64,000 bases of DNA from Eledone cirrhosa (Eukaryota), in the NCBI GenBank assembly GCA_964016885.1, contig OZ024744.1:132060001-132124000 (forward strand), read 5' to 3'. The notes under the pieces are model-generated. The model had not been told where the DNA came from. It ran no database searches and saw only the letters and a program-made list of their open reading frames with translations. Positions within the stretch are counted from its first letter, which is position 1. Each line of letters opens with the position of its first letter. The position numbers and the translations under genes are program-made. Of the stretch, positions 1 to 64,000 are shown piece by piece.

Positions 1-735
1 ATTTAAATTGGGGTTAAGTTAACTTTGTGGTTAAGTTAAGTTGGGGTTAAGTTAAGTTGGGGTTAAATTAAGTTGGGGTTGAGTGAAGTTGGGGTTAAGT
101 TAAGTTGGGGTTAAGTTAAGTTGGGGTTAACTTAAGTTGGGTTTAAGTTAAGTTGCGGTTAAGTTAATTTGGGGTTAAGTTAAGTTGGGGTTAAGTTAAG
201 TCGGGGTTAATTTAAGTTGGGGTTGAGTTAAGTTGGGGTTAATTTAAGTTGAGGTTATGTTAAGTTGGGGTTAATTTAAGTTGGGGTTAAGTTAAGTTGG
301 GGTTAAGTTAAGTTGGGGTTAATTTAAGTTGGGATTAAGTTCAGTTGGGGTTAAATTAAGTTGGGGTTAAGTTAAGCTGGGGTTAAATTAAGTTGGGGTT
401 AAGTTAAGTTGGGGTTAATTTAAGTTGGGGTTAAGTTAAGTTAGGGTTAATTTAAGTTGGGGTTATGTTAAGTTGGGGTTAAGTTAAGTTGGGGTTAAGT
501 CGAGTTGGGGTTAAGTTAAGTTGGGGTTAGTTAAGTTGAGTTTAAGTCAAGTTGGGGTTAATTTAAGTTGGGGTTAAGTTAAGTTGGGGTTCAGTTAAGT
601 TGGGGTTAAGTTAAGTTGGGGTTGAGTTAAGTTGTGGTTAAGTTAAGGTGGGGTTAGGTTAAGTTGGGGTTAAGTTAAGCTGGGGTTAAATTAAGTTGGG
701 GTTAAGTTAAGTTGGGGTTAGGTTAAGTTGGGGTT

Positions 736-1000
736 AACCCCAACTTAACTTAACCCCAACTTCACTCAACCCCAACTTAACTTAACCCCAACTTCACTCA
801 ACCCCAACTTAACTCAACCCCAACTTAACTTAACCCCAACTTAAATTAACCCCGACTTAAACTTAACCCCGACTTAACTTAACCCCAACTTAACTTAACC
901 CCAACTTAACTTAACCCCAACTTAACTTAATCCCAACTTGACTTAACCCCAACTTAACTCACACCCAACTTAACTTACCCCCAACTTAACTTAACCCCAA
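736..1000 (-). repeat. Inverted 16-mer block, class B
   Basis: (AACCCCAACTTAACTT)n; starts GGGGTT|AACCCC, ends CCCCAAAGTCGGAGTTAAG. Confidence 0.95.
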
Positions 1001-3574
1001 AGTCGGAGTTAAGTTAAGTTGGGGTTAAGTTAAGTTAGGCTTAACTTAAGTTGGGGTTAAGTTAAGTTGGGGGTAAGTTAAGTTGGGGGTAAGTTAAGTT
1101 GGGGTTAAGTTAAGTTGGGGTTAAGATAAGTGGTGGTTATGTTAAGTTGAGGTTAAGTTAAGTTAGGGTTAAATTAAGTTGGGGTTAAGTTAAGTTGGGT
1201 GTAAGTTAAGTTGGGGTTGAGTGAAGTTGGGGTTAAGTTAAGTTGGGGTTAAGTAGAGTTGGGGTTAAGTTAAGTTGGGGTTAAGTTAAGTTGGTGTTAA
1301 GTTGGGGTTAAGTTAAGTTGGGGTTAAGTTGGGGTTAAGTTAAGTGGTGGTTATGTTAAGTTGGGGTTAACTTAAGTTGGGGTTAATTTAAGTTGGGGTT
1401 GAGTGAAGTTGGGGTTAAGTTAAGTTGGGGTTAAGTTAAGTTGGGGTTAACTTAAGTTGGGTTTAAGTTAAGTTGCGGTTAAGTTAATTTGGGGTTAAGT
1501 TAAGTTGGGGTTAAGTTAAGTCGGGGTTAATTTAAGTTGGGGTTGAGTTAAGTTGGGGTTAATTTAAGTTGAGGTTATGTTAAGTTGGGGTTAATTTAAG
1601 TTGGGGTTAAGTTAAGTTGGGGTTAAGTTAAGTTGGGGTTAATTTAAGTTGGGATTAAGTTCAGTTGGGGTTAAATTAAGTTGGGGTTAAGTTAAGCTGG
1701 GGTTAAATTAAGTTGGGGTTAAGTTAAGTTGGGGTTAAGTTAAGTTGGGGTTAAGTTAAGTTAGGGTTAATTTAAGTTGGGGTTATGTTAAGTTGGGGTT
1801 AAGTTAAGTTGGGGTTAAGTCGAGTTGGGGTTAAGTTAAGTTAGGGTTAGTTAAGTTGAGTTTAAGTTAAGTTGGGGTTAATTTAAGTTGGGGTTAAGTT
1901 AAGTTGGGGTTCAGTTAAGTTGGGGTTAAGTTAAGTTGGGGTTAAGTTAAGTTGGTTTAAGTTAAGTTGGGGTTAGGTTAAGTTGGGGATAAGTTAAGTT
2001 GGGGATAAGCTAAGTTGGGGTTAAGTTAAGTTGGGTTTAAGTTAAGTTGGGGTTAAGTTAAGTTAGGCTTAACTTAAGTTGGGGTTAAGTTAAGTTGGGG
2101 GTAAATTAAGTTGGGGGTAAGTTAAGTTGGGGTTAAGTTAAGTTGGGGTTAAGTTAAGTGGTGGTTATGTTAAGTTGGGGTTAAGTTAAGTTGGGGTTAA
2201 ATTAAGTTGGGGTTAAGTTAAGTTCGGTGTAAGTTAAGTTGGGGTTGAGTGAAGTTGGGGTTAAGTTAAGTTGGGGTTAAGTTAAGTTGGTGTTAAGTTG
2301 GGGTTAAGTTAAGTTGGGGTTAAGTTAAGTCGGGGTTAAGTTAAGTTGGGGTTGAGTTAAGTTGGGGTTAATTTAAGTTGAGGTTATGTTAAGTTGGGGT
2401 TAATTTAAGTTGGGGTTAATTTAAGTTGGGGTTAAGTTAAGTTGGGGTTAAGTTGAGGTTAAGTTAAGTTGTGGTTAAGTTAAGTTGGGGCTAAGTTAAG
2501 TTGGGGCTAAGTTAAGTTGGGGCTAAGTTAAGTTGGGGTTAAGTTAAGTTGGGGTTAAGTTAAGTTGGGTTTAATTTAAGTTGGGGTCAACTTAAGTTGG
2601 GGTTAAGTTGAGTTGGGGTTAAATTAAGTTGGGGTTAAGTTAAGTTGTGGTTCAGTTAAGTTGGGGTTAAGTTAAGTTTGGGTTAATTTGGGGTTAAATT
2701 AAGTTGGGGTTAAGTTAAGTTGGGGTTAAGTTAAGTTGGGGTTAAGTTAAGTTGGGGTTAATTTAAGTTGGGGTTAAGTTAAGTCGGGGTTAAGTTAAGT
2801 CGGTGTTAAGTTAAGTTAGGGTTAAGTTAAGTTGGGGTTAAGTTAAGTTGGCTTTAAGTTAAGCTGGGGTTAAGTTAAGTTGGGGTTAAATTAAGTTGGG
2901 GTTAAGTTAAGTTGGGGTTAGGTTAAGTTTGGGTTAGGTTAAGTTGGGGTTAAATTAAGTTGGGGTTAAGTTAAGTTGGGGTTAAGTTAAGTTGGGGTTA
3001 GGTTAAGTTGGGGATAAGTTAAGTTGGGGATAATTTAAGTTGGGGTTAAGTTAAGTTGGGTTTAAGTTAAGCTGGGGTTAAGTTAAGTTGGGGTTAAATT
3101 AAGTTGGGGTTAAGTTAAGTTGGGGTTAAGTTAAGTTAGGGTTAGGTTAAGTTGGGGATTAGTTAAGTTGGGGATAAGTTAAGTTGGGGTTAATTAAGTT
3201 GGGTTTAAGTTAAGTTGTGGTTAAGTTAAGTTGGGGTTAAGTTAAGTTGGGGGTTAAGTTAAGTTGGGGTTAGTTAAGTTTAGTTTAAGTTAAGTTGGGG
3301 TTAATTTAAGTTGGGGTTAAGTTAAGTTGGGGTTCAGTTAAGTTGGGGATAAGTCAAGTTGGGGTTAAGTTAAGTTGGGGTTAAGTTAAGTTGGGGTTAG
3401 GTTAAGTTGGGGATAAGTTAAGTTGGGGATAAGCTAAGTTGGGGTTAAGTTAAGTTGGGTTTAAGTTAAGTTGGGGTTAAGTTAAGTTGGGGTTAAATTA
3501 AGTTGGAGATAAGTTAAGCTGGGGTTAAATTAAGTTGGGGTTAAGTTAAGTTGGGGTTAGGTTAAGTTGGGGTT

Positions 3575-3870
3575 AACCCCAACTTAACTTAACCCCAACT
3601 TAACTTAGCCCCAACTTCACTCAACCCCAACTTAACTTAACCCCAACTTCACTCAACCCCAACTTAACTCAACCCCAACTTAAGTTAACCCCAACTTAAC
3701 TTAACCCTAACTTAACTTAACCCCGACTTAACTTAACCCCGACTTAACTTAACCCCAACTTAACTTAACCCCAACTTAACTTAACCCCAACTTAACTTAA
3801 TCCCAACTTGACTTAACCCCAACTTAACTCACACCCAACTTAACTTACCCCCAACTTAACTTAACCCCAA
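3575..3870 (-). repeat. Inverted 16-mer block, class C
   Basis: C-rich monomers; ends CCCCAAATTCGGAGTTACG. Confidence 0.95.
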
Positions 3871-5771
3871 ATTCGGAGTTACGTTAAGTTGGGGTTAAGT
3901 TAAGTTAGGCTTAACTTAAGTTGGGCTTAAGTTAAGTTGGGGGTAAGTTAAGTTGGGGGTAAGTTAAGTTGGGGTTAATTTAAGTTGGGGTTAAGTTAAG
4001 TGGTGGTTATGTTAAGTTGGGGTTAATTTAAGTTGGGGTTAAATTAAGTTGGGGTTAAGTTAAGTTGGGTGTAAGTTAAGTTGGGGTTGAGTGAAGTTGG
4101 GGTTAAGTTAAGTTGGGGTTAAGTAGAGTTGGGGTTAAGTTAAGTTGGGGTTAAGTTAAGTTGGTGTTAAGTTGGGGTTAAGTTAAGTTGGGGTTAAGTT
4201 GGGGTTAAGTTAAGTGGTGGTTATGTTAAGTTGGGGTTAACTTAAGTTGGGGTTAATTTAAATTGGGGTTAAGTTAACTTTGTGGTTAAGTTAAGTTGGG
4301 GTTAAGTTAAGTTGGGGTTAAGTTAAGTTGGGGTTGAGGGAAGTTGGGGTTAAGTTAAGTTGGGGTTAACTTAAGTTGGGTTTAAGTTAAGTTGCGGTTA
4401 AGTTAAGTTGGGGTTAAGTTAAGTTGGGGTTAAGTTAAGTCGGGGTTAAGTTAAGTTGGGGTTGAGTTAAGTTGGGGTTAATTTAAGTTGAGGTTATGTT
4501 AAGTTGGGGTTAATTTAAGTTGGGGTTAAGTTAAGTTGGGGTTAAGTTAAGTTGGGGTTAATTTAAGTTGGGGTTAAGTTCAGTTGGGGTTAATTTAAGT
4601 TGGGGTTAAGTTAAGTTGGGTTTAAGTTAAGTTGGGGTTAAATTAAGTTGGGGTTAAATTAAGTTGGTGTTAAGTTAAGTTGGGGTTAGGTTAAGTTGGG
4701 GATAAGTTAAGTTGGGGATAAGCTAAGTTGGGGTTAATTTAAGTTGGGTTTAAGTTAAGTTGGGGTTAAGTTAAGTCGGGGTTATGTTAAGTCGGTGTTA
4801 AGTTAAGTTAGGGTTAAGTTAAGTTGGGGTTAAGTTAAGTTGGGGTTGAGTTAAGTTGGGGTTGAGTTAAATTGGGGTTGAGTTAAGTTGGGGTTAAGTT
4901 AAGTTGGGGTTAAGTTAAGTTGGGGTTAAGTTAAGTTGGGGTTGAGTTAAGTTGGGTTTACTTCAAGTTGGGGCTAAGTTAAGTTGGGGCTGATTTAAGT
5001 TGGGTGTACGTTAAGTTGGGGTTGACTGAAGTTGGGGTTAAGTTAAGTTGGGGTTAAGTTAAGTTAGGGTTAATTTAAGTTGGGGTTATGTTAAGTTGGG
5101 GTTAAGTTAAGTTGGGGTTAAGTAGAGTTGGGGTTAATTTAAGTTGGGGTTAAGTTAAGTTGGTGTTAAGTTGGGGTTAATTTAAGTGGTGGTTATGTTA
5201 AGTTGGGGTTAAGTTAAGTTGGGGTTAATTTAAATTGGGGTTAAGTTAACTTTGTGGTTAAGTTAAGTTGGAGTTAAGTTAAGTTGGAGTTAAGTTAAGT
5301 TGGGGTTGAGTGAAGTTGGGGTTAAGTTAAGTTGGGGTTAACTTAAGTTGGGTTTGAGTTAAGTTGCGGTTAAGTTAAGTTGGGGTTAAGTTAAGTTGGG
5401 GTTAAGTTAAGTCGGGGTTAATTTAAGTTGGGGTTAAGTTAAGTTGGGGTTAATTTAAGTTGGGGTTAAGTTAAGTTTAGGTTAAGTTAAGTTGGGGTTA
5501 AATTAAGTTGGGGTTAAGTTAAGTTGGGGTTAAGTTAAGTTGGGGTTAGGTTAAGTTGGGGATAAGTTAAGTTGGGGATAAGTTAAGTTGGGGTTAAGTT
5601 AAGTTGGGTTTAAGTTAAGTTGGGGTTAAGTTAAGTTGGGGTTTAATTAAGTTGGGGTTGAGTTAAGTTGGGGTTGACTTAAGTTGGGCTTAAGTTAAGT
5701 TGGGGTTAAGTTAAGATGTGGTTAAGTTAAGTTGGGGTTAATTTAAGTTGGGGTTAAATTAAGTTGGGGTT

Positions 5772-6034
5772 AACCCCACTTAAACTAACCCCAACTTAAC
5801 TTAACCCCAACTTAACATAACCCCAACTTAATTTAACCCCAGCTTAACTTAACCCCAACTTAATTTAACCCCAACTTAACTTAACCCCGACTTAACTTAA
5901 CCCCGACTTAACTTAACCCCAACTTAACTTAACCCCAACTTAACTTAACCCCAACTTAACTTAATCCCAACTTGACTTAACCCCAACTTAACTCACACCC
6001 AACTTAACTTACCCCCAACTTAACTTAACCCCAA
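5772..6034 (-). repeat. Inverted 16-mer block, hybrid (flipped class A flank + class C end)
   Basis: Starts AACCCCACTTAAACTAACCCC; ends CCCCAAATTCGGAGTTACG. Confidence 0.93.
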
Positions 6035-9000
6035 ATTCGGAGTTACGTTAAGTTGGGGTTAAGTTAAGTTAGGCTTAACTTAAGTTGGGCTTAAGTTAAG
6101 TTGGGGGTAAGTTAAGTTGGGGGTAAGTTAAGTTGGAGTTAATTTAAGTTGGGGTTAAGTTAAGTGGTGGTTATTTTAAGTTGGGGTTAATTTAAGTTGG
6201 GGTTAAATTAAGTTGGGGTTAAGTTAAGTTGGGTGTAAGTTAAGTTGGCGTTGAGTGAAGTTGGGGTTAAGTTAAGTTGGGGTTAAGTAGAGTTGGGGTT
6301 AAGTTAAGTTGGGGTTAAGTTAAGTTGGTGTTAAGTTGGGGTTAAGTTAAGTTGGGGTTAAGTTGGGGTTAAGTTAAGTGGTGGTTATGTTAAGTTGGGG
6401 TTAACTTAAGTTGGGGTTAATTTAAATTGGGGTTAAGTTAACTTTGTGGTTAAGTTAAGTTGGGGTTAAGTTAAGTTGGGGTTAAGTTAAGTTGGGGTTG
6501 AGGGAAGTTGGGGTTAAGTTAAGTTGGGGTTAACTTAAGTTGGGTTTAAGTTAAGTTGCGGTTAAGTTAAGTTGGGGTTAAGTTAAGTTGGGGTTAAGTT
6601 AAGTCGGGGTTAAGTTAAGTTGGGGTTGAGTTAAGTTGGGGTTAATTTAAGTTGAGGTTATGTTAAGTTGGGGTTAATTTAAGTTGGGGTTAAGTTAAGT
6701 TGGGGTTAAGTTAAGTTGGGGTTAATTTAAGTTGGGGTTAAGTTCAGTTGGGGTTAATTTAAGTTGGGGTTAAGTTAAGTTGGGTTTAAGTTAAGTTGGG
6801 GTTAAATTAAGTTGGGGTTAAATTAAGTTGGGGTTAAGTTAAGTTGGGGTTGAGTTAAGTTGGGTTTACTTCAAGTTGGGGCTAAGTTAAGTTGGGGCTG
6901 AGTTAAGTTGGGTGTACGTTAAGTTGGGGTTGACTGAAGTTGGGGTTAAGTTAAGTTGGGGTTAATTTAAGTTAGGGTTAATTTAAGTTGGGGTTATGTT
7001 AAGTTGGGGTTAAGTTAAGTTGGGGTTAAGTAGAGTTGGGGTTAATTTAAGTTGGGGTTAAGTTAAGTTGGTGTTAAGTTGGGGTTAATTTAAGTGGTGG
7101 TTAAGTTAACTTTGTGGTTAAGTTAAGTTGGAGTTAAGTTAAGTTGGAGTTAAGTTAAGTTGGGGTTAATTTAAATTGGGGTTAAGTTAACTTTGTGGTT
7201 AAGTTAAGTTGGAGTTAAGTTAAGTTGGAGTTAAGTTAAGTTGGGGTTGAGTGAAGTTGGGGTTAAGTTAAGTTGGGGTTAACTTAAGTTGGGTTTGAGT
7301 TAAGTTGCGGTTAAGTTAAGTTGGGGTTAAGTTAAGTTGGGGTTAAGTTAAGTCGGGGTTAATTTAAGTTGGGGTTAAGTTAAGTTGGGGTTAATTTAAG
7401 TTGGGGTTAAGTTAAGTTTAGGTTAAGTTAAGTTGGGGTTAAATTAAGTTGGGGTTAAGTTAAGTTGGGGTTAAGTTAAGTTGGGGTTAGGTTAAGTTGG
7501 GGATAAGTTAAGTTGGGGATAAGTTAAGTTGGGGTTAAGTTAAGTTGGGTTTAAGTTAAGTTGGGGTTAAGTTAAGTTGGGGTTTAATTAAGTTGGGGTT
7601 GAGTTAAGTTGGGGTTGACTTAAGTTGGGCTTAAGTTAAGTTGGGGTTAAGTTAAGATGTGGTTAAGTTAAGTTGGGGTTAATTTAAGTTGGGGTTAAAT
7701 TAAGTTGGGGTTAAGTTAAGTTGGGGGTAAGGTAAGTTGGTGGTAAGTTAAGTTGGGGGTAAGTTAAGATGGGGCTAAGTTAAGTTGGGGTTAAGTTAAT
7801 TTGGGGTTAAGTTAAGTTAGGGTTAAGTTAAGTTGGGGTTGACTTAAGTTGGGGTTAAGTTAAGTTGGGGTTATGTTAAGTTGGGTTTAAGTTAAGTTGG
7901 GGTTAAGTTAAGTTGGGGTTAAGTTAAGTTGCGGTTAAGTTAAGTTGGGGTTAAGTTAAGTTGGGGTTAAGTTAAGTTGGGGTTAAGTTAAGTTGGGGTT
8001 AATTTAAGTTGGGGTTAAATTAAGTTGGGGTTAATTTAAGTTGGGGGTTAAGATAAGTTGGGGTTAAGTTAAGTTGGGGTTAAATTAAGTTGGGGTTAAG
8101 TTAAGTTGGGGTTAATTTAAGTTGGGGTTAAGTTAAGTTGGGGTTGAGTTAAGTTGGGGGTAAGTTAAGTTGGGGGTAAGTTAAGTTGGGTGTAAGTTAA
8201 GATGGGGTTAAGTTAAGTTGGGGTTAAGTTATTTTGGGGTTAAGTTAAGTTGGAGGTAAGTTAAGTTGGTGATAAGTTAAGTTGGGGGTAAGTTAAGTTG
8301 GGGTTAAGTTAAGTTGGGTTAAGTTGGGGTTAAGTTAAGTTAGGGTTAAGTTAAGTTGGGGTTGAGTTAAGTTGGGGTTAAGTTAAGAGGTGGTTATGTT
8401 CAGTTGGGGTTAAGTTAAGTTGGGGTTAAGTTAAGTTGGGGTTAAGTTAAGTTGGGGTTAAGATAAGTTGGGGTTAAGTTAAGTTGGGGTTGAGTTAAGT
8501 TGGGGTTGAGTTAATTTGGGGTTAAGTTAAGTTGGGGTTAACTTAATTTGGGTTTAATTTAAGTTGGGGTTAAGTTAAGTTGGGGTTAAATTAAGTTGGG
8601 ATTAAGTTAAGTTGGGTGTACGTTAAGTTGGGGTTGACTGAAGTTGGGGTTAAGTTAAGTTGGGGTTAAGTAGAGTTGGGGTTAATTTAAGTTGGGGTTA
8701 AGTTAAGTTGGTGTTAAGTTGGGGTTAAGTTAAGTTGGGGTTAAGTTGGGGTTAAGTTAAGTGGTGGTTATGTTAAGTTGGGGTTAAGTTAAGTTGGGGT
8801 TAATTTAAATTGGGGTTAAGTTAACTTTGTGGTTAAGTTAAGTTGGAGTTAAGTTAAGTTGGGGTTAAGTTAAGTTGGGGTTGAGTGAAGTTGGGGTTAA
8901 TTTAAGTTGGGGTTCAGTTAAGTTGGGGTTAAGTTAAGTTGGGGTTGAGTTAAGTTGGGGTTAATTTAAGTTGAGGTTATTTTAAGTTGGGGTTAAGTTA

Positions 9001-10860
9001 AGTTGGGGTTAAGTTAAGTTGGGGTTAAGTTAAGTTGGGGTTAAGTTAAGTTGGGTTTAAGTTAAGTTGGGGTTAAATTAAGTTGGGGTTAAATTAAAGT
9101 GGGGTTAAGTTAAGTTGGGGGTAAGTTAAGTTGGGGGCAAGTTAAGTTGGTGTTAAGTTAAGTTGGGGTTAAGTTAAGTTGGGGTTAAGTTAAGTTGGGT
9201 TTAAGTTAAGTTGGGACTAAGTTAAGTTAGGGCTAAGTTCAGTTGGGGTAAAGTTAAGTTGGGGCTAAGTTAAGTTGGGTATAAGTTGAGTTGGGGTTAA
9301 GTTAAGTTGGGGTTAAGTTAAGTTGGGGTTAAATTAAGTTGGGGTTAATTAAGTTGGGGTTAAGTTAAGTTGGGGTTAAGTTAAGTTGGGGTTAATTTAA
9401 GTTGGGGTTGTGTTAATTTGGGGTTAAGTTAAGTTGGGGTTATATTAAGTTGGGGTTAAGTTAAGTTGGGTTTAAGTTAAGTTGGGGTTAAGTTAAGTTG
9501 GGGTTAAGTTGAGTTAGGGTTAATTTAAGTTGGGGTTATGTTAAGTTGGGGTTAAGTTAAGTTGGGGTTAAGTAGAGTTGGGGTTAATTTAAGTTGGGGT
9601 TAAGTTAAGTTGGTGTTAAGTTGGGGTTAAGTTAAGTTGGGGTTAAGTTGGGGTTAAGTTGAGTGGTGGTTATGTTAAGTTGGGGTTAAGTTAAGTTGGG
9701 GTTAATTTAAATTGGGGTTAAGTTAACTTTGTGGTTAAGTTAAGTTGGAGTTAAGTTAAGTTGGGGTTAAGTTAAGTTGGGGTTGAGTTAAGTTGGGGTT
9801 AAATTAAGTTGGGGTTAAATTAAGGTGGGGTTAAGTTAAGTTGGGGGTAAGTTAAGTTGGGGGCAAGTTAAGTTGGTGTTAAGTTAAGTTGGGGTTAAGT
9901 TAAGTTGGGGTTAAGTTAAGTTGGGTTTAAGTTAAGTTGGGACTACGTTAAGTTAGGGCTAAGTTAAGTTGGGGTTAATTAAGTTGGGGCTAAGTTAAGT
10001 TGGGTCTAAGTTGAGTTGGGGTTAAGTTAAGTTGGGGTTAAGTTAAGTTGGGGTTAAATTAAGTTGGGGTTAATTAAGTTGGGGTTAAGTTAAGTTGGGG
10101 TTAAGTTAAGTTGGGGTTAATTTAAGTTGGGGGTAAGTTAAGTTGGTGGTAAGTTAAGTTGGGGTTAAGTTAAGTTGGGGTTAATTTAAATTGGGGTTAA
10201 TTTAACTTTGTGGTTAAGTTAAGTTGGGGTTTATTTAAGTTGGGTTTAAGTTAAGTTGGGGTTGAGTTAAGTTGGGGTTGAGTGAAGTTGGGGTTAAGTT
10301 AAGTCGGGGTTAATTTAAGTTGGGGTTGAGTTAAGTCGGGGTTAATTCAAGTTGGGGCTAAGTTAATTTGTGGTTAAGTTAAGTTGGGGTTAAGTTAAGT
10401 TGGGGTTAAGTTAAGTTGGGGGTAAGTTAAGTTGGGGGCAAGTTAAGTTGGGGTTAAGTTAAGTTGCGGTTAATTTAAGTTGGGGTTAAGTTAAGTTGGG
10501 TTTAAGTTAAGTTGGGGTTCAGTTAAGTTGGGGTTTAGTTAAGTTGGGGTTAAGTTAAGTGGGGGTTGAGTTAAGTTGGGGTTAAGCTAAGTTGGGGTTA
10601 AGTTAAATTGAGGTTAAGTTAACTTGGGTTTGAGTTAAGTTGGGGTTAAGTTAAGTTGGTGTTAAGTTCAGTTCAGGTTAAGTTAACTTGGGGTTAAGTT
10701 AAGTTGGGGTTGAGTTAAGTTGGGGTTGAGTTAAGTTGGGGTTAAGTTAAGTTGGGGTTAACTTAAGTTGGGGTTAAGTTAAGTTGGGGTTAATTTAAGT
10801 TGGGGTTCAGTTAAATTGAGGTTAAGATAACTTGGGTTTGCGTTAAGATGGGGTTAAGTT

Positions 10861-12480: not shown

Positions 12481-13185
12481 TTACGTTGGGGTTAAGTTAA
12501 GTTGGGGTTAAGTTGAGGTTAAGTTAAGTTGTGGTTAAGTTAAGTTGGGGCTAAGTTAAGTTGGGGCTAAGTTAAGTTGGGGTTAAGTTAAGTTGGGGTT
12601 AATTTAAGTTGGGGTTAGGTTAAGTTGGGGATAAGTTAAGTTGGGGATAAGTTAAGTTGGGGTTAAGTTGGGTTTAAGTTAAGCTGGGGTTAAGTTAAGT
12701 TGGGGTTAAATTAAGTTGGGGTTAAGTTAAGTTTGGGTTAGGTTAAGTTGGGGATAAGTTAAGTTGGGGATAAGTTAAGTTGGGGTTAAGTTAAGTTGGG
12801 TTTAAGTTAAGTTGGGGTTAAGTTAAGTTGGGGTTAAGTTAAGTTGGGGTTAAGTTAAGTTGCGGTTAGTTAAGTTGAGTTTAAGTTAAGTTGGGGTTAA
12901 TTTAAGTTGGGGTTAAGTTAAGTTGGGGTTCAGTTAAGTTGGGGTTAAGTCAAGTTGGGGTTAAGTTAAGTTGGGGTTAAGTTAAGTTGGTGTTAGGTTA
13001 AGTTGGGGATAATTTAAGTTGGGGATAAGCTAAGTTGGGGTTAAGTTAAGTTGGGTTTAAGTTAAGTTGGGGTTAAGTTAAGTTGGGGTTAAATTAAGTT
13101 GGGGTTAAGTTAAGCTGGGGTTAAATTAAGTTGGGGTTATGTTAAGTTGGGGTTAAGTTAAGTTGGGGTTAGTTTAAGTGGGGTT

Positions 13186-14189: not shown

Positions 14190-14502
14190 AACCCCAACTT
14201 AACTTAACCCCAACTTAACTTAACCCCAACTTCACTCAACCCCAACTTAACTTAACCCCAACTTCACTCAACCCCAACTTAACTTAACCCCAACTTCACT
14301 CAACCCCAACTTCACTCAACCCCAACTTAACTTAACCCTAACTTAACTTAACCCCGACTTAAACTTAACCCCGACTTAACTTAACCCCAACTTACCTTAA
14401 CCCCAACTTAACTTAACCCCAACTTAACTTAATCCCAACTTGACTTAACCCCAACTTAACTCACACCCAACTTAACTTACCCCCAACTTAACTTAACCCC
14501 AA
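14190..14502 (-). repeat. Inverted 16-mer block, class B
   Basis: Contains CCGACTTAAACTT; ends AAAGTCGGAGTTAAG. Confidence 0.95.
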
Positions 14503-51476: not shown

Positions 51477-51669
51477 CCCCGACTTAACCCCGACTTAACT
51501 TAACCCCAACTTAACTTAACCCCAACTTAACTTAACCCCAACTTAACTTAACCCCAACTTGACTTAACCCCAACATAACTCACACCCAACTTAACTTACC
51601 CCCAACTTAACTTAACCCCAACTTGACTTAACCCCAACTTAACTTAACTCCAACTTAACTTAACGCCAA
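51477..51669 (-). repeat. Inverted 16-mer block fused directly to AT island 4
   Basis: TTTTTCAAATTA|CCCCGACTTAACCCC...; ends GCCAAAGTCGGAGTTAAG; lacks the GGGGTTAACCCC start. Confidence 0.93.
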
Positions 51670-53673: not shown

Positions 53674-54018
53674 AACCCCAACTTAACTTAACCCCAACTT
53701 AACTTAACCCCAACTTCACTCAACCCCAACTTAAATTAACCCCAACTTCACTCAACCCCAACTTAACTCAACCCCAACTTAAATTAACCCCAACTTAACT
53801 TAACCCTGACTTAACTTAACCCCGACTTAACTTAACCCCGACTTAACTTAACCCCAACTTAACTTAAACCCCAACTTAACTTAACCCCAACTTAACTTAA
53901 CCCCAACTTGACTTAACCCCAACTTAACTCACACCCAACTTAACTTACCCCCAACTTAACTTAACCACAACTTGACGTAAACCCAACTTAACTTAACCCC
54001 AACTTAACTTAACCCCAA
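53674..54018 (-). repeat. Inverted 16-mer block, class A
   Basis: As 13186. Confidence 0.95.
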
Positions 54019-54645
54019 AGTCGGAGTTCAGTTAAGTTGGGGTTCAGTTAAGTTAGGCTTAACTTAAGTTGGGGTTAAGTTAAGTTGGGGGTAAGTTAAG
54101 TTGGGGGTAAGTTAAGTTGGGGTTAAGTTAAGTTGGGGTTAAGTTGGGGTTAAGTTAAGTTAGGGTTAAGTTAAGTTGGGGTTGAGTTAAGTTGGGGTTA
54201 AGTTAAGTGGTGGTTATGTTAAGTTGGGGTTAAGTTAAGTTGGGGTTAAATTAAGTGGGGTTAACTTAAGTTGGGTGTAAGTTAAGTTGGGGTTGAGTGA
54301 AGTTGGGGTTAAGTTAAGTTGGGGTTAAGTTAAGTTAGGGTTAATTTAAGTTGGGGTTATGTTAAGTTGGTGTTAAGTTAAGTTGGGGTTAAGTCGAGTT
54401 GGGGTTAAGTTAAGTTGGGGTTAAGTTAAATTGGTGTTAAGTTAAGTTGGGGTTAAGTTAAGTTGGGGTTAGTTAAGTTGAGTTTAAGTTAAGTTGGGGT
54501 TAATTTAAGTTGGGGTTAAGTTAAGTTGGGGTTGAGTTAAGTTGTGGTTAAGTTAAGTTGGGGTTAGGTTAAGTTGGGGTTAAGTTAAGCTGGGGTTAAA
54601 TTAAGTTGGGGTTAAGTTAAGTTGGGGTTAGGTTAAGTTGGGGTT

Positions 54646-54915
54646 AACCCCAACTTCACTCAACCCCAACTTAACTTAACCCCAACTTCACTCAACCCCA
54701 ACTTAACTCAACCCCAACTTAACTTAACCCCAACTTAACTTAACCCTAACTTAACTTAACCCCGACTTAAACTTAACCCCGACTTAACTTAACCCCAACT
54801 AAACTTAACCCCAACTTAATTTAACCCCAACTTAACTTAATCCCAACTTGACTTAACCCCAACTTAACTCACACCCAACTTAACTTACCCCCAACTTAAC
54901 TTAACTTAACCCCAA
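54646..54915 (-). repeat. Inverted 16-mer block, class B
   Basis: As 14190, shorter. Confidence 0.95.
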
Positions 54916-57683
54916 AGTCGGAGTTAAGTTAAGTTGGGGTTAAGTTAAGTTAGGCTTAACTTAAGTTGGGGTTAAGTTAAGTTGGGGGTAAGTTAAGTTG
55001 GGGGTAAGTTAAGTTGGGGTTAAGTTAAGTTGGGGTTAAGATAAGTGGTGGTTATGTTAAGTTGAGGTTAAGTTAAGTTAGGGTTAAATTAAGTTGGGGT
55101 TAAGTTAAGTTGGGTGTAAGTTAAGTTGGGGTTGAGTGAAGTTGGGGTTAAGTTAAGTTGGGGTTAAGTAGAGTTGGGGTTAAGTTAAGTTGGGGTTAAG
55201 TTAAGTTGGTGTTAAGTTGGGGTTAAGTTAAGTTGGGGTTAAGTTGGGGTTAAGTTAAGTGGTGGTTATGTTAAGTTGGGGTTAACTTAAGTTGGGGTTA
55301 ATTTAAATTGGGGTTAAGTTAACTTTGTGGTTAAGTTAAGTTGGGGTTAAGTTAAGTTGGGGTTAAATTAAGTTGGGGTTGAGTGAAGTTGGGGTTAAGT
55401 TAAGTTGGGGTTAAGTTAAGTTGGGGTTAACTTAAGTTGGGTTTAAGTTAAGTTGCGGTTAAGTTAAGTTGGGGTTAAGTTAAGTTGGGGTTAATTTAAG
55501 TCGGGGTTAATTTAAGTTGGGGTTGAGTTAAGTTGGGGTTAATTTAAGTTGTGGTTATGTTAAGTTGGGGTTAATTTAAGTTGGGGTTAAGTTAAGTTGG
55601 GGTTAAGTTAAGTTGGGGTTAATTTAAGTTGGGATTAAGTTCAGTTGGGGTTAAATTAAGTTGGGGTTAAGTTAAGCTGGGGTTAAATTAAGTTGGGGTT
55701 AAGTTAAGTTGGGGTTAAGTTAAGTTGGGGTTAAGTTAAGTTAGGGTTAATTTAAGTTGGGGTTATGTTAAGTTGGGGTTAAGTTAAGTTGGGGTTAAGT
55801 CGAGTTGGGGTTAAGTTAAGTTGGGGTTAGTTAAGTTGAGTTTAAGTTAAGTTGGGGTTAATTTAAGTTGGGGTTAAGTTAAGTTGGGGTTCAGTTAAGT
55901 TGGGGTTAAGTTAAGTTGGGGTTAAGTTAAGTTGGTTTAAGTTAAGTTGGGGTTAGGTTAAGTTGGGGATAAGTTAAGTTGGGGATAAGGTAAGTTGGGG
56001 TTAAGTTAAGTTGGGTTTAAGTTAAGTTGGGGTTAAGTTAAGTTAGGCTTAACTTAAGTTGGGGTTAAGTTAAGTTGGGGGTAAATTAAGTTGGGGGTTA
56101 GTTAAGTTGGGGTTAAGTTAAGTTGGGGTTAAGTTAAGTGGTGGTTATGTTAAGTTGGGGTTAAGTTAAGTTGGGGTTAAATTAAGTTGGGGTTAAGTTA
56201 TGTTGGGTGTGAGTTAAGTTGGGGTTGAGTGAAGTTGGGGTTAAGTTAAGTTGGGGTTAAGTTAAGTTAGGGTTAATTTAAGTTGGGGTTATGTTAAGTT
56301 GGGGTTAAGTTAAGTTGGGGTTAAGTAGAGTTGGGGTTAAGTTAAGTTGGGGTTAAGTTAAGTTGGTGTTAAGTTGGGGTTAAGTTAAGTTGGGGTTAAG
56401 TTAAGTCGGAGTTAAGTTAAGTTGGGGTTGAGTTAAGTTGGGGTTAATTTAAGTTGAGGTTATGTTAAGTTGGGGTTAATTTAAGTTGGGGTTAATTTAA
56501 GTTGGGGTTAAGTTAAGTTGGGGTTAAGTTGAGGTTAAGTTAAGTTGTGGTTAAGTTAAGTTGGGGCTAAGTTAAGTTGGGGCTAAGTTAAGTTGGGGCT
56601 AAGTTAAGTTGGGGTTAAGTTAAGTTGGGGTTAAGTTAAGTTGGGTTTAATTTAAGTTGGGGTCAACTTAAGTTGGGGTTAAGTTGAGTTGGGGTTAAAT
56701 TAAGTTGGGGTTAATTTAAGTTGGGGCTAAGTTAAGTTGGGGCTGAGTTAAGTTGGGGTTAAGTTAAGTTGGGGTTAAGTTAAGTTGGGGTTAAGTTAAT
56801 TTTGGGTTAAGTTAAGTTGTGGTTCAGTTAAGTTGGGGTTAAGTTAAGTTTGGGTTATTTTGGGGTTAAATTAAGTTGGGGTTAAGTTAAGTTGGGGTTA
56901 AGTTAAGTTGGGGTTAAGTTAAGTTGGGGTTAATTTAAGTTGGGGTTAATTTAAGTCGGGGTTAAGTTAAGTCGGTGTTAAGTTAAGTTAGGGTTAAGTT
57001 AAGTTGGGGTTAAGTTAAGTTGGCTTTAAGTTAAGCTGGGGTTAAGTTAAGTTGGGGTTAAATTAAGTTGGGGTTAAGTTAAGTTGGGGTTAGGTTAAGT
57101 TTGGGTTAGGTTAAGTTGGGGTTAAATTAAGTTGGGGTTAAGTTAAGTTGGGGTTAAGTTAAGTTGGGGTTAGGTTAAGTTGGGGATAAGTTAAGTTGGG
57201 GATAATTTAAGTTGGGGTTAAGTTAAGTTGGGTTTAAGTTAAGCTGGGGTTAAGTTAAGTTGGGGTTAAATTAAGTTGGGGTTAAGTTAAGTTGGGGTTA
57301 AGTTAAGTTTGGGTTAGGTTAAGTTGGGGATTAGTTAAGTTGGGGATAAGTTAAGTTGGGGTTAAGTTAAGTTGGGTTTAAGTTAAGTTGTGGTTAAGTT
57401 AAGTTGGGGTTAAGTTAAGTTGGGGGTTAAGTTAAGTTGGGGTTAGTTAAGTTTAGTTTAAGTTAAGTTGGGGTTAATTTAAGTTGGGGTTAAGTTAAGT
57501 TGGGGTTAAGTTAAGTTGGGGTTAGGTTAAGTTGGGGATAAGCTAAGTTGGGGTTAAGTTAAGTTGGGTTTAAGTTAAGTTGGGGTTAAGTTAAGTTGGG
57601 GTTAAATTAAGTTGGAGATAAGTTAAGCTGGGGTTAAATTAAGTTGGGGTTAAGTTAAGTTGGGGTTAGGTTAAGTTGGGGTT

Positions 57684-57979
57684 AACCCCAACTTAACTTA
57701 ACCCCAACTTAACTTAGCCCCAACTTCACTCAACCCCAACTTAACTTAACCCCAACTTCACTCAACCCCAACTTAACTCAACCCCAACTTAAGTTAACCC
57801 CAACTTAACTTAACCCTAACTTAACTTAACCCCGACTTAACTTAACCCCGACTTAACTTAACCCCAACTTAACTTAACCCCAACTTAACTTAACCCCAAC
57901 TTAACTTAATCCCAACTTGACTTAACCCCAACTTAACTCACACCCAACTTAACTTACCCCCAACTTAACTTCACCCCAA
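57684..57979 (-). repeat. Inverted 16-mer block, class C
   Basis: Ends AAAATCGGAGTTACG. Confidence 0.95.
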
Positions 57980-60573
57980 AATCGGAGTTACGTTAAGTTG
58001 GGGTTAAGTTAAGTTAGGCTTAACTTAAGTTGGGCTTAAGTTAAGTTGGGGGTAAGTTAAGTTGGGGGTAAGTTAAGTTGGGGTTAATTTAAGTTGGGGT
58101 TAAGTTAAGTGGTGGTTATGTTAAGTTGGGGTTAATTTAAGTTGGGGTTAAATTAAGTTGGGGTTAAGTTAAGTTGGGTGTAAGTTAAGTTGGGGTTGAG
58201 TGAAGTTGGGGTTAAGTTAAGTTGGGGTTAAGTAGAGTTGGGGTTAAGTTAAGTTGGGGTTAAGTTAAGTTGGTGTTAAGTTGGGGTTAAGTTGGGGTTA
58301 AGTTAAGTGGTGGTTATGTTAAGTTGGGGTTAACTTAAGTTGGGGTTAATTTAAATTGGGGTTAAGTTAACTTTGTGGTTAAGTTAAGTTGGGGTTAAGT
58401 TAAGTTGGGGTTAAGTTAAGTTGGGGTTGAGGGAAGTTGGGGTTAAGTTAAGTTGGGGTTAACTTAAGTTGGGTTTAAGTTAAGTTGCGGTTAAGTTAAG
58501 TTGGGGTTAAGTTAAGTTGGGGTTAAGTTAAGTCGGGGTTAAGTTAAGTTGGGGTTGAGTTAAGTTGGGGTTAATTTAAGTTGAGGTTATGTTAAGTTGG
58601 GGTTAATTTAAGTTGGGGTTAAGTTAAGTTGGGGTTAAGTTAAGTTGGGGTTAATTTATGTTGGGGTTAAGTTCAGTTGGGGTTAATTTAAGTTGGGGTT
58701 AAGTTAAGTTGGGTTTAAGTTAAGTTGGGGTTAAATTAAGTTGGGGTTAAATTAAGTTGGGGTTAAGTTAAGTTGGGGTTAGGTTAAGTTGGGGATAAGT
58801 TAAGTTGGGGATAAGCTAAGTTGGGGTTAAGTTAAGTTGGGTTTAAGTTAAGTTGGGGTTAAGTTAAGTCGGGGTTATGTTAAGTCGGTGTTAAGTTAAG
58901 TTAGGGTTAAGTTAAGTTGGGGTTAAGTTAAGTTGGGGTTGAGTTAAGTTGGGGTTGAGTTAAATTGGGGTTGAGTTAAGTTGGGGTTAAGTTAAGTTGG
59001 GGTTAAGTTAAGTGGTGGTTATGTTAAGTTGGGGTTAAGTTAAGTTGGGGTTAAATTAAGTTGGGGTTAAGTTATGTTGGGTGTAAGTTAAGTTGGGGTT
59101 GAGTGAAGTTGGGGTTAAGTTAAGTTGGGGTTAAGTTAAGTTAGGGTTAATTTAAGTTGGGGTTATGTTAAGTTGGGGTTAAGTTAAGTTGGGGTTAAGT
59201 AGAGTTGGGGTTAAGTTAAGTTGGGGTTAAGTTAAGTTGGTGTTAAGTTGGGGTTAAGTTAAGTTGGGGTTAAGTTAAGTCGGAGTTAAGTTAAGTTGGG
59301 GTTGAGTTAAGTTGGGGTTAATTTAAGTTGAGGTTATGTTAAGTTGGGGTTAATTTAAGTTGGGGTTAATTTAAGTTGGGGTTAAGTTAAGTTGGGGTTA
59401 AGTTGAGGTTAAGTTAAGTTGTGGTTAAGTTAAGTTGGGGCTAAGTTAAGTTGGGGCTAAGTTAAGTTGGGGCTAAGTTAAGTTGGGGTTAAGTTAAGTT
59501 GGGGTTAAGTTAAGTTGGGTTTAATTTAAGTTGGGGTCAACTTAAGTTGGGGTTAAGTTGAGTTGGGGTTAAATTAAGTTGGGGTTAATTTAAGTTGGGG
59601 CTGAGTTAAGTTGGGGCTGAGTTAAGTTGGGGTTAAGTTAAGTTGGGGTTAAGTTAAGTTGGGGTTAAGTTAATTTTGGGTTAAGTTAAGTTGTGGTTCA
59701 GTTAAGTTGGGGTTAAGTTAAGTTTGGGTTATTTTGGGGTTAAATTAAGTTGGGGTTAAGTTAAGTTGGGGTTAAGTTAAGTTGGGGTTAAGTTAAGTTG
59801 GGGTTAATTTAAGTTGGGGTTAATTTAAGTCGGGGTTAAGTTAAGTCGGTGTTAAGTTAAGTTAGGGTTAAGTTAAGTTGGGGTTAAGTTAAGTTGGCTT
59901 TAAGTTAAGCTGGGGTTAAGTTAAGTTGGGGTTAAATTAAGTTGGGGTTAAGTTAAGTTGGGGTTAGGTTAAGTTTGGGTTAGGTTAAGTTGGGGTTAAA
60001 TTAAGTTGGGGTTAAGTTAAGTTGGGGTTAAGTTAAGTTGGGGTTAGGTTAAGTTGGGGATAAGTTAAGTTGGGGATAATTTAAGTTGGGGTTAAGTTAA
60101 GTTGGGTTTAAGTTAAGCTGGGGTTAAGTTAAGTTGGGGTTAAATTAAGTTGGGGTTAAGTTAAGTTGGGGTTAAGTTAAGTTTGGGTTAGGTTAAGTTG
60201 GGGATTAGTTAAGTTGGGGATAAGTTAAGTTGGGGTTAAGTTAAGTTGGGTTTAAGTTAAGTTGTGGTTAAGTTAAGTTGGGGTTAAGTTAAGTTGGGGG
60301 TTAAGTTAAGTTGGGGTTAGTTAAGTTTAGTTTAAGTTAAGTTGGGGTTAATTTAAGTTGGGGTTAAGTTAAGTTGGGGTTAAGTTAAGTTGGGGTTAGG
60401 TTAAGTTGGGGATAAGTTAAGTTGGGGATAAGCTAAGTTGGGGTTAAGTTAAGTTGGGTTTAAGTTAAGTTGGGGTTAAGTTAAGTTGGGGTTAAATTAA
60501 GTTGGAGATAAGTTAAGCTGGGGTTAAATTAAGTTGGGGTTAAGTTAAGTTGGGGTTAGGTTAAGTTGGGGTT

Positions 60574-60869
60574 AACCCCAACTTAACTTAACCCCAACTT
60601 AACTTAGCCCCAACTTCACTCAACCCCAACTTAACTTAACCCCAACTTCACTCAACCCCAACTTAACTCAACCCCAACTTAAGTTAACCCCAACTTAACT
60701 TAACCCTAACTTAACTTAACCCCGACTTAACTTAACCCCGACTTAACTTAACCCCAACTTAACTTAACCCCAACTTAACTTAACCCCAACTTAACTTAAT
60801 CCCAACTTGACTTAACCCCAACTTAACTCACACCCAACTTAACTTACCCCCAACTTAACTTAACCCCAA
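60574..60869 (-). repeat. Inverted 16-mer block, class C (duplicate of 57684)
   Basis: Offset 2890 from 57684. Confidence 0.95.
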
Positions 60870-63400
60870 AATCGGAGTTACGTTAAGTTGGGGTTAAGTT
60901 AAGTTAGGCTTAACTTAAGTTGGGCTTAAGTTAAGTTGGGGGTAAGTTAAGTTGGGGGTAAGTTAAGTTGGGGTTAATTTAAGTTGGGGTTAAGTTAAGT
61001 GGTGGTTATGTTAAGTTGGGGTTAATTTAAGTTGGGGTTAAATTAAGTTGGGGTTAAGTTAAGTTGGGTGTAAGTTAAGTTGGGGTTGAGTGAAGTTGGG
61101 GTTAAGTTAAGTTGGGGTTAAGTAGAGTTGGGGTTAAGTTAAGTTGGGGTTAAGTTAAGTTGGTGTTAAGTTGGGGTTAAGTTAAGTTGGGGTTAAGTTG
61201 GGGTTAAGTTAAGTGGTGGTTATGTTAAGTTGGGGTTAACTTAAGTTGGGGTTAATTTAAATTGGGGTTAAGTTAACTTTGTGGTTAAGTTAAGTTGGGG
61301 TTAAGTTAAGTTGGGGTTAAGTTAAGTTGGGGTTGAGGGAAGTTGGGGTTAAGTTAAGTTGGGTTTAACTTAAGTTGGGTTTAAGTTAAGTTGCGGTTAA
61401 GTTAAGTTGGGGTTAAGTTAAGTTGGGGTTAAGTTAAGTCGGGGTTAAGTTAAGTTGGGGTTGAGTTAAGTTGGGGTTAATTTAAGTTGAGGTTATGTTA
61501 AGTTGGGGTTAATTTAAGTTGGGGTTAAGTTAAGTTGGGGTTAAGTTAAGTTGGGGTTAATTTATGTTGGGGTTAAGTTCAGTTGGGGTTAATTTAAGTT
61601 GGGGTTAAGTTAAGTTGGGTTTAAGTTAAGTTGGGGTTAAATTAAGTTGGGGTTAAATTAAGTTGGGGTTAAGTTAAGTTGGGGTTAGGTTAAGTTGGGG
61701 ATAAGTTAAGTTGGGGATAAGCTAAGTTGGGGTTAAGTTAAGTTGGGTTTAAGTTAAGTTGGGGTTAAGTTAAGTCGGGGTTATGTTAAGTCGGTGTTAA
61801 GTTAAGTTAGGGTTAAGTTAAGTTGGGGTTAAGTTAAGTTGGGGTTGAGTTAAGTTGGGGTTGAGTTAAATTGGGGTTGAGTTAAGTTGGGGTTAAGTTA
61901 AGTTGGGGTTAAGTTAAGTTGGGGTTAAGTTAAGTTGGGGTTGAGTTAAGTTGGGGTTACTTCAAGTTGGGGCTAAGTTAAGTTGGGGCTGAGTTAAGTT
62001 GGGTGTACGTTAAGTTGGGGTTGACTGAAGTTGGGGTTAAGTTAAGTTGGGGTTAAGTTAAGTTAGGGTTAATTTAAGTTGGGGTTATGTTAAGTTGGGG
62101 TTAAGTTAAGTTGGGGTTAAGTAGAGTTGGGGTTAATTTAAGTTGGGGTTAAGTTAAGTTGGTGTTAAGTTGGGGTTAATTTAAGTGGTGGTTATGTTAA
62201 GTTGGGGTTAAGTTAAGTTGGGGTTAATTTAAATTGGGGTTAAGTTAACTTTGTGGTTAAGTTAAGTTGGAGTTAAGTTAAGTTGGAGTTAAGTTAAGTT
62301 GGGGTTGAGTGAAGTTGGGGTTAAGTTAAGTTGGGGTTAACTTAAGTTGGGTTTGAGTTAAGTTGCGGTTAAGTTAAGTTGGGGTTAAGTTAAGTTGGGG
62401 TTAAGTTAAGTCGGGGTTAATTTAAGTTGGGGTTAAGTTAAGTTGGGGTTAATTTAAGTTGGGGTTAAGTTAAGTTTAGGTTAAGTTAAGTTGGGGTTAA
62501 ATTAAGTTGGGGTTAAGTTAAGTTGGGGTTAAGTTAAGTTGGGGTTAGGTTAAGTTGGGGATAAGTTAAGTTGGGGATAAGTTAAGTTGGGGTTAAGTTA
62601 AGTTGGGTTTAAGTTAAGTTGGGGTTAAGTTAAGTTGGGGTTTAATTAAGTTGGGGTTGAGTTAAGTTGGGGTTGACTTAAGTTGGGCTTAAGTTAAGTT
62701 GGGGTTAAGTTAAGATGTGGTTAAGTTAAGTTGGGGTTAAGTTAAGTTGGGGTTAAATTAAGTTGGGGTTAAGTTAAGTTGGGGGTAAGGTAAGTTGGTG
62801 GTAAGTTAAGTTGGGCGTAAGTTAAGATGGGGCTAAGTTAAGTTGGGGTTAAGTTAATTTGGGGTTAAGTTAAGTTAGGGTTAAGTTAAGTTGGGGTTGA
62901 CTTAAGTTGGGGTTAAGTTAAGTTGGGGTTATGTTAAGTTGGGTTTAAGTTAAGTTGGGGTTAAGTTAAGTTGGGGTTAAGTTAAGTTGCGGTTAAGTTA
63001 AGTTGGGGTTAAGTTAAGTTGGGGTTAAGTTAAGTTGGGGTTAAGTTAAGTTGGGGTTAATTTAAGTTGGGGTTAAATTAAGTTGGGGTTAATTTAAGTT
63101 GGGGGTTAAGATAAGTTGGGGTTAAGTTAAGTTGGGGTTAAATTAAGTTGGGGTTAAGTTAAGTTGGGGTTAATTTAAGTTGGGGTTAAGTTAAGTTGGG
63201 GTTGAGTTAAGTTGGGGGTAAGTTAAGTTGGGGGTAAGTTAAGTTGGGTGTAAGTTAAGATGGGGTTAAGTTAAGTTGGGGTTAAGTTATTTTGGGGTTA
63301 AGTTAAGTTGGGGGTAAGTTAAGTTGGGGTTAATTTAAGTTGGGGATCAGTTAAATTGAGGTTAAGATAACTTGGGTTTGCGTTAAGATGGGGTTAAGTT

Positions 63401-64000
63401 AGGTTTGTCGAAAACCTTATATAATCATTTTTATTTAGGTTCTTCGAAACACCTTATATAATCAATTTTTTTAGGTTTTTCGAAAAACCTTATATAATCA
63501 ATTTTTTAATACTTTTAGAAATATTTATATCTGATTTCAAATATTGATTTTATTAGGTTTTTGGAATAATCAATTTTTTTTACGTTTTTCGAAAAATGTT
63601 ATATAATCAATTTTTTTTAGGTTTTTCGAATCAATTCAATTTTTATAATCAAATATTTTTAGGTTTTTAGAAAAACCTTATATAATCAAATTTTTTTAGG
63701 TTTTTCGAAAAACCTTATATAATTAATTTTTTTATACTTTTAGAAATATTTATATCTGATTTCAAATATTGGATTTTTTAGGTTTTTCGATAATCAATTT
63801 TTTTTAGATTTTTCGAAAAATCTTATATAATCAATTTTTTTACGTTTTTAGAAAGACCTTATATAATCAATTTTTTTATACTTTTAGAAATATTTATATC
63901 TGATTTCAAATATTGATTTTTTTTTTAGGTTTTTCGAAATACCTTATATAATCAATTTTTTTTAGGTTTTTCAAATTACTTTATATAATCAATTTTTTTT
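63401..64000. repeat. AT-rich island 5 (truncated by window end)
   Basis: Same left junction ...GCGTTAAGATGGGGTTAAGTT|AGGTTTGTCGAAAACC and same first 600 bp as island 1. Confidence 0.95.

What the first reader, a model, noticed from the sequence alone, without database searches (positions are those of the whole stretch)
1..64000. Composite three-tier satellite: telomere-like 16-mer + fold-back inversions + palindromic AT islands in a ~12 kb higher-order repeat
Seen: two unrelated tandem repeats and a recurring inversion cassette are co-amplified in a fixed order (island, then A ~0.7 kb later, B ~1.0 kb after A, C 3-4 kb after B, then a long G tract). Island starts are 12374, 12441, 12241 and 15484 bp apart. 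Established: higher-order repeats typify centromeric satellites such as primate alpha satellite, but these are normally head-to-tail arrays of one family. Inference: this is a recombination-maintained chromosomal domain (centromeric, subtelomeric or a telomerase-independent end) with dyad symmetry at every scale. I do not recognise it as a described family but cannot search for it.
Basis: partly seen in the sequence, partly recalled or inferred. Interest (0 to 1): 0.75.

Follow-up and report, generated by a model that had tools for sequence, protein, structure and literature searches.

The report
Patchwork satellite, candidate octopus centromere region
This is a piece of a giant block of short repeats near one end of an octopus chromosome, where one flipped piece and one AT-rich insert were likely copied over and over by ordinary duplication, and the block may mark the region around the centromere, which is still untested.

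Summary
The layout is real: five AT-rich islands (spacings 12374, 12441, 12241, 15484) and 18 inverted 16-mer cassettes. But the '12-kb higher-order repeat' is one two-copy duplication (99.6%); over 224 kb, island spacing runs from 2.1 to 23.9 kb. The cassettes are not fold-backs of their neighbours (87-91% to either arm, 94-100% to each other), so they likely descend from one founder junction. A likely founder survives at the array's distal edge. The window lies in an ~8.4-Mb 16-bp array, 4.4 Mb from the end of a 136.5-Mb scaffold of an octopod whose telomere is TTAGGG, so it is not a telomerase-independent end. The 16-mer or a 32-bp relative also sits at the midpoints of C2, C3 and C8, which suggests (peri)centromeric heterochromatin. 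A subtelomeric or fusion-scar block remains possible, and no CENP-A data exist. The architecture matches published Tribolium intermingled satellites with conserved inversion and transition junctions. The scan noted a similar founder-junction satellite (another repeat) elsewhere in this genome. Verdict: new member of a known kind; its value is as a candidate cephalopod centromere marker.

The parts
1..63400 (+). 16-bp satellite TTAAGTTAAGTTGGGG, G-rich on +; part of an array spanning G000:C28 about 126.97-135.35 Mb
   Evidence: array ends; interior sampled
10861..12479 (+). AT island 1 (37/81-bp subrepeats plus two ~245-bp hairpin blocks at 11540 and 12113)
23235..24851 (+). AT island 2
35676..37293 (+). 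AT island 3
47917..51477 (+). AT island 4, internally expanded to 3.6 kb and joined directly to a truncated inverted cassette
63401..64000 (+). AT island 5 (runs on beyond the window)
10861..35675 (+). the one true ~12.4-kb tandem duplication (units 10861-23234 and 23235-35675, 99.6% over aligned columns)
736..1000 (-). inverted 16-mer cassette (B type)
3575..3870 (-). inverted cassette (C type)
5772..6034 (-). inverted cassette (C-type tail, variant head)
13186..13530 (-). inverted cassette A
14190..14502 (-). inverted cassette B
18098..18361 (-). inverted cassette C
25563..25907 (-). inverted cassette A
26567..26895 (-). inverted cassette B
30539..30802 (-). inverted cassette C
37957..38301 (-). 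inverted cassette A
38961..39289 (-). inverted cassette B
42026..42321 (-). inverted cassette C
45217..45512 (-). inverted cassette C (second copy in unit 3)
51478..51669 (-). headless inverted cassette fused to island 4 (likely deletion junction)
53674..54018 (-). inverted cassette A
54646..54915 (-). inverted cassette B
57684..57979 (-). inverted cassette C
60574..60869 (-). inverted cassette C (second copy in unit 4)

Best explanation
The window is a mosaic zone inside an ~8.4-Mb 16-bp satellite array of an octopod, likely (peri)centromeric heterochromatin of scaffold C28, in which one inverted stub and one AT-rich insert were likely captured once each and then multiplied by nested tandem duplications. 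Shown: one head and one tail junction type for the inversion, one main junction type on each side of the islands, unequal block lengths, and one 99.6% 12.4-kb duplication. Inferred step 1: the 16-mer arose by deletion from an older 32-bp satellite that still flanks the array. Step 2: a head-to-head joint at the palindromic TTAA beside that older satellite, plus a second switch back into the G strand, cut out a ~300-bp inverted cassette. Step 3: an AT satellite block entered through TTAAGTT/TTAGGTT microhomology. Step 4: unequal exchange or break-induced replication copied blocks of 2-24 kb. Inferred role: heterochromatin at or beside the centromere; the layout itself needs no function.
For: Single founders: 59 of 62 marker-bearing cassettes share one tail-junction type. 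All 23 16-mer-to-AT junctions detected are one type (two variants), and 20 of 24 AT-to-16-mer junctions are identical. Cassettes match each other better than their flanks. At the array's distal edge (L165) and at the edge of the 124.6-Mb block (L160), the same head junction and marker run continue into the 32-bp satellite instead of the tail junction. The head junction has 587 + 552 matches; the 100 listed are all on C28, from 124.6 and 130.25 Mb on, so the cassette is far more widespread than the islands' module. Location: the family lies at 50.3% of C2, 48.8% of C3 and 51.1% of C8, and near the end of C28. Octopod C-bands are mostly centromeric (PMC6160780 passages), and telocentric chromosomes are common in octopods (PMC5646656 passages).
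Against: No CENP-A, Hi-C or methylation data. Long perfect 16-mer runs were listed only on C3, C18 and C28. Sampled densities put about 26,000 of 31,940 perfect 48-mers on C28 (my extrapolation), so this is not a pan-centromeric satellite in the assembly. C18 has two separate arrays (10.9% and 23.2% of its length) among zinc-finger genes, and its 4.80-Mb junction is the same as the C28 left edge, so it may be a duplication or a misplaced piece. The C3 array abuts at least 230 kb of degenerate CCCTAA, which fits a fusion scar equally well. The C1 test was mixed: no hit of the window's repeats at 208.7 Mb, and the companion 20-bp repeat also lies at 290.5 Mb. The direction founder-to-cassette is inferred, not shown.
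Confidence: 0.6

Rival explanations
1. A non-centromeric subtelomeric or interstitial heterochromatin block; the mid-chromosome copies on C2, C3 and C8 are scars of end-to-end fusions. The founder-and-duplication mechanism is the same.
For: The C28 array lies 1.15-9.5 Mb from the scaffold end. On C3 it abuts a long degenerate telomeric tract oriented like a chromosome start. The family is absent from most scaffolds in the listings. Octopods also show terminal C-bands.
Against: Three separate fusions would each have to join near-equal chromosomes, including the 60.6-Mb C8. Centric fusion of telocentrics would make the same sites centromeres anyway.
Confidence: 0.27
2. The dyads and the ~12-kb spacing are selected structural elements (cruciforms, hairpins, G4 or i-motifs) that position centromeric chromatin, as proposed for Tribolium.
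For: The junction hairpins fold strongly (z -8.0 and -6.1) and the 245-bp block folds (z -5.0). 9 of 23 intervals lie at 11-14.2 kb. Conserved junctions were read as functional in T. madens.
Against: Any inversion in a repeat folds by construction. Junction conservation equals the 97-100% identity of the surrounding young duplications. Spacing spans 2.1-23.9 kb. Sampled stretches at 127.1-130.0 Mb (outside the 128.56-Mb island zone) and 133.45-135.3 Mb carry no cassettes. G4 potential is modest (score 0.99, against 1.5 for TTAGGG; no motif with loops of 7 or fewer).
Confidence: 0.08
3. The mosaic is an assembly artefact (chimeric or fold-back reads, collapsed repeats).
For: The large C-strand block from 132.79 Mb and the 124.6-Mb block abut 200-N scaffold gaps, so their orientation or place may be artefactual. 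No laid record bridges a junction by the tool's 31-letter rule.
Against: The window has no N. Cassettes carry private shared variants and diverge like a family, which read chimeras would not do. Both repeats are seen in public runs (X1 30 of 30 bins, X6 29 of 30). Two X1 contigs run 24-26 letters either side of the tail junction, though X1 may be the assembled sample.
Confidence: 0.04
4. A telomerase-independent chromosome end built from a telomere-like 16-mer.
For: G-rich strand points towards the nearer scaffold end in most samples; the last 10 kb of C28 lack TTAGGG.
Against: 5 of 28 scaffold starts are pure CCCTAA arrays and none is the 16-mer. Over 1 Mb of other sequence follows the array.
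Confidence: 0.01

Closest known systems
Tribolium madens TmSat1/TmSat2 (PMC13081366; abstract and all of section 7 read)
   Same: [quoted passage not shown]
   Different: There the two satellites are related, 225 and 704 bp long, on all chromosomes, and the inverted subarrays are kilobases long and roughly symmetric. Here a 16-bp and an unrelated 37/81-bp satellite mix mainly on one scaffold, and the inverted piece is a fixed ~300-bp stub outside the islands.
Tribolium freemani TfSat01/TfSat03 (PMC12581902; passages)
   Same: Alternating major and minor arrays, a recurring ~4-kb cassette with a conserved inversion point.
   Different: The dyad centre lies inside the minor-satellite cassette; here the islands keep one orientation. 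No sequence relation is claimed.
Heterogeneous higher-order repeats and intermixed ditypic centromere satellites (bioRxiv 10.64898/2026.09.17.752431; section 6 and a term search)
   Same: Irregularly spaced duplicated blocks rather than regimented periods; two families intermixed; sub-100-bp monomers occur.
   Different: No octopus, cephalopod or mollusc mention in the main text; its supplementary family table could not be seen.
Primate alpha-satellite regimented HOR (as summarised)
   Same: Near-identical multi-monomer blocks in tandem.
   Different: Alpha HORs repeat one period over long stretches; here only two 12.4-kb units are collinear.

Membership tests
Telomeric repeat or telomerase-independent terminal array | forms the chromosome terminus in place of the usual repeat | tested here: not met
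   CCCTAA arrays at 5 of 28 scaffold starts, 16-mer at none; array ends 1.15 Mb inside
Regimented higher-order repeat (alpha-satellite type) | one multi-monomer unit repeated many times at fixed period | tested here: not met
   2 collinear units only; intervals 2.1-23.9 kb
Fold-back (snap-back) inversion | inverted arm is a copy of the adjacent arm | tested here: not met
   87-91% to flanks, 92-95% to consensus, perfect arm 7-14 bp
Tribolium-type intermingled satellite | major satellite interrupted by short minor-satellite arrays over megabases | tested here: met
   islands at 128.56-128.87+ and 132.03-132.79 Mb in an 8.4-Mb array
Tribolium-type intermingled satellite | [quoted passage not shown] | tested here: met
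   59 of 62, 23 of 23 and 20 of 24 junctions of one type
Tribolium-type intermingled satellite | kilobase-scale, roughly symmetric macro-dyads | tested here: not met
   inverted parts are 0.26-0.35 kb against 0.66-4.9 kb direct tracts; the 32-bp relative on C8 does switch strand every 35-90 kb
Centromeric satellite | present at one locus on all or most chromosomes | tested here: inconclusive
   family seen on C2, C3, C8, C18 and C28 only; listings stop at 100 rows and the assembly has gaps
Centromeric satellite | binds CENP-A or lies at the primary constriction | not testable with these tools
   no chromatin or FISH data
rDNA-spacer-derived satellite | subrepeat found in the rDNA intergenic spacer | tested here: not met
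   three rDNA intervals (C25, C12, C4) hold no 16-mer and only a 48-bp weak AT match in non-rDNA sequence
Transposon-derived satellite | monomer present inside an intact mobile element | not tested

The most novel reading that the evidence does not exclude
The 8.4-Mb array is the working centromere of C28, with the near-pure AT satellite at about 132.40-132.50 Mb as the CENP-A core and the window as its mixing border. The 16-bp, 32-bp, AT and GGCCGGCC-box satellites together mark chromosome-specific centromeres on C2, C3 and C8. These would be the first cephalopod centromere sequences and, with the telomeric tract on C3, a record of centric fusions.
Probability: 0.3. Interest if true: 0.68.

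Novelty: new member of a known kind. Interest (0 to 1): 0.42.

Why it matters
My searches (and passages) found no described cephalopod centromeric satellite, so these repeats give concrete FISH and CENP-A targets and would locate centromeres and fusion points in an octopod karyotype. The locus also bears on the Tribolium proposal that conserved inversion junctions are functional: here the likely founder of the junction is still visible at the array edge, which shows that such conservation can come from copying alone.

Tried and rejected
rDNA-spacer origin: rejected on three rDNA intervals. Structured RNA: Rfam on four flanking or related loci gave three sub-threshold miRNA-type hits only. Fold-back copying of either arm: rejected; no plus-strand source better than 94.3% among the 41 sequences then held. 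Public runs: no RNA holder listed. Organism B run X4 had a small share (0.17) and short pieces only, so nothing is drawn from it. RAD reads X6 and X7 mostly fit only partly and give depth 0-2.6 across the tail junction. A paper search for the 11-mer gave 9 unrelated papers. The C1 midpoint test found other satellites but none of the window's. Earlier-finding look-ups near the window and by sequence gave nothing relevant. Whether C28 is a sex chromosome was not tested.

Full report
1. What is in the window. The window is a 16-bp satellite, G-rich on the + strand. Of 2525 monomers parsed from 13 G tracts, 31% are perfect, with about one change per monomer. There are 17 inverted cassettes of 263-345 bp and one headless cassette fused to island 4.

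2. The 12-kb period is local. Units 1 and 2 are collinear (12068 matches, 53 mismatches). Unit 3 shares only about the first 5 kb, and unit 4 is rearranged further. In 224 kb of contiguous sequence (132.03-132.25 Mb) there are 24 islands after merging two split ones. Their 23 intervals run from 2.1 to 23.9 kb, and 9 fall at 11-14.2 kb. The recurring unit is shorter: after 11 of 20 standard island ends cassette A follows at 0.67-0.72 kb, and in 9 of 20 B follows 1.0 kb later. This is a heterogeneous, not a regimented, higher-order structure.

3. The inversions are not fold-backs. Perfect arms at the head junction are 7-14 bp. Reversed cassettes are 87-91% identical to the upstream arm (17 tested) and 89-90% to the downstream arm (6 tested), but 92-95% to the consensus. 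Copies match each other at 94-100% and carry words absent from the G strand. Among all loci then held, 59 of 62 marker-bearing cassettes share one tail-junction type; two were cut short by a locus end or my length rule, and one is the edge copy below. The head junction has 587 forward and 552 reverse matches (partly double-counted, as it is near-palindromic); the 100 listed are all on C28.

4. A likely founder. At the distal edge of the array (L165, about 135.348 Mb) the head junction and the marker run continue into an older, more degenerate 32-bp satellite. The edge of the 124.6-Mb block shows the same (L160). The 16-mer can be read from the 32-bp unit by deletions alone (seen directly in the two consensus units). 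I infer that the cassette was cut out of such an edge by one further strand switch and then copied. The reverse history is not excluded. The islands also look single-origin: 23 of 23 left junctions are one type, joined through TTAAGTT/TTAGGTT, and 20 of 24 right junctions are identical.

5. Where it lies. The window is G000:C28:132,060,001-132,124,000 of a 136,499,333-bp scaffold in a 3.0-Gb genome. The genome has molluscan hemocyanin genes. The best single-unit PDB match is 1js8 (814 bits, against 708 for 4yd9_C); that these are octopus and squid proteins is recalled. The array runs from about 126.97 to 135.35 Mb in samples. Islands occur at 128.56-128.87+ and 132.03-132.79 Mb, with nearly pure AT satellite in samples at 132.40-132.50 Mb. 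Two large opposite-strand blocks abut scaffold gaps, so their orientation is uncertain. Five of 28 scaffold starts are CCCTAA arrays and none is the 16-mer, which agrees with TTAGGG reported for an octopus (PMC6160780 passages).

6. Relatives elsewhere in the genome. C2, 209.2-209.9 Mb (50.3%): the 16-mer alternates with a ~270-bp GGCCGGCC-box unit, flanked by AT satellite and a little 32-bp satellite. C3, 184.77-185.37 Mb (48.8%): pure 16-mer beside at least 230 kb of degenerate telomeric repeat. C8, 30.88-31.1 Mb (51.1%): the 32-bp relative with strand switches. C18: arrays at 4.80 and 9.9-10.4 Mb, sharing a zinc-finger-gene junction with the C28 left edge. Three of these five scaffolds carry the family within 1.3% of the midpoint (about 2 in 10,000 under uniform placement, my arithmetic), as metacentric centromeres would. 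Fusion scars could do the same. Against a general centromeric role, long perfect runs were listed on only three scaffolds, most copies are on C28, and the C1 test was mixed. Listings stop at 100 rows, so later scaffolds are not cleared for the 32-bp repeat.

7. Structure and artefact checks. Junction hairpins fold well, as any inversion must. The ~245-bp island block folds beyond shuffles (z -5.0) but the 37-bp monomers do not (z -1.26). G4 potential is modest. Both repeats occur in public runs of the same species label. Two X1 contigs cross the tail junction by 24-26 letters, below the tool's 31-letter bar, and X1 may be the assembled sample. A local artefact is unlikely mainly because the cassettes diverge like a family.

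8. Comparison with what is known. T. madens (PMC13081366, abstract and section 7) and T. freemani (PMC12581902, passages) have multi-megabase putative (peri)centromeric regions where a minor satellite sits as a cassette in a major one, with conserved inversion and transition sites. This locus works like those but lacks symmetric kilobase dyads and shares no claimed ancestry. The centromere atlas preprint describes heterogeneous higher-order repeats and intermixed families and does not mention cephalopods in its main text; its supplements were not available and may list these monomers. Telomere-like sequence in centromeres is an old idea (PMC4620154 passages). Searches and passages of PMC13218726 and PMC12682272 showed no cephalopod centromeric satellite; Dfam and Repbase were not searchable.

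9. Verdict. The pattern is real but is the residue of a few founder events and nested duplications, not a new three-tier design. I put the copying mechanism at about 0.85 and a (peri)centromeric setting at about 0.55-0.6. It is a new member of a known kind, worth following up as a candidate cephalopod centromere marker. Interest 0.42.

Noticed in passing
G000:C2:209.17-209.88 Mb (L039, L087, L088, L090, L183): A ~680-kb array of 424-520-bp units, each 9-17 16-mers plus a ~270-bp GGCCGGCC-box unit, bracketed by two AT satellites, at the exact scaffold midpoint; a strong centromere candidate in its own right.
   Followed up: partly
G000:C18:6.73-6.85 Mb (L126, L127) and C28:125.57-126.19 Mb (L155, L156): A ~1.78-kb tandem unit with an internal ~560-bp inverted repeat and GGCCGGCC boxes, related to the C2 partner unit.
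   Followed up: partly
G000:C3:184.54-184.77 Mb (L095, L163, L164, L184): At least 230 kb of degenerate interstitial telomeric repeat directly joined to the 16-mer array at the scaffold midpoint; likely fusion site.
   Followed up: partly
G000:C8:30.88-31.10 Mb (L169-L178): A ~220-kb array of the 32-bp relative that switches strand several times (true macro-dyads), at 51% of the scaffold.
   Followed up: partly
L146:6870 (C18:4.80 Mb) and L203:2500 (C28:126.97 Mb): The same junction between the 16-mer array and a C2H2 zinc-finger gene fragment on two scaffolds: segmental duplication or misplaced contig.
   Followed up: partly
G000:C1:208.73-208.82 Mb and 290.5 Mb (L187-L196): A 20-bp GGGTGCCCC repeat and another TTTAG/CTTAG satellite with inversions and a scaffold gap near the C1 midpoint; the 20-bp repeat also flanks the C2 and C8 clusters.
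   Followed up: partly
G000:C28 as a whole: At 136.5 Mb it is listed after 22-Mb scaffolds, out of size order, as sex chromosomes often are (recalled convention); the largest satellite block found lies on it.
   Followed up: no
window 11575-11635 and copies: A long imperfect hairpin in the ~245-bp island block (z -5.0); the origin of this block is unexplained.
   Followed up: partly
L201:543-2300 (C28:132.794 Mb): A 200-N gap followed by low-quality-looking C-rich sequence where the array changes strand.
   Followed up: yes
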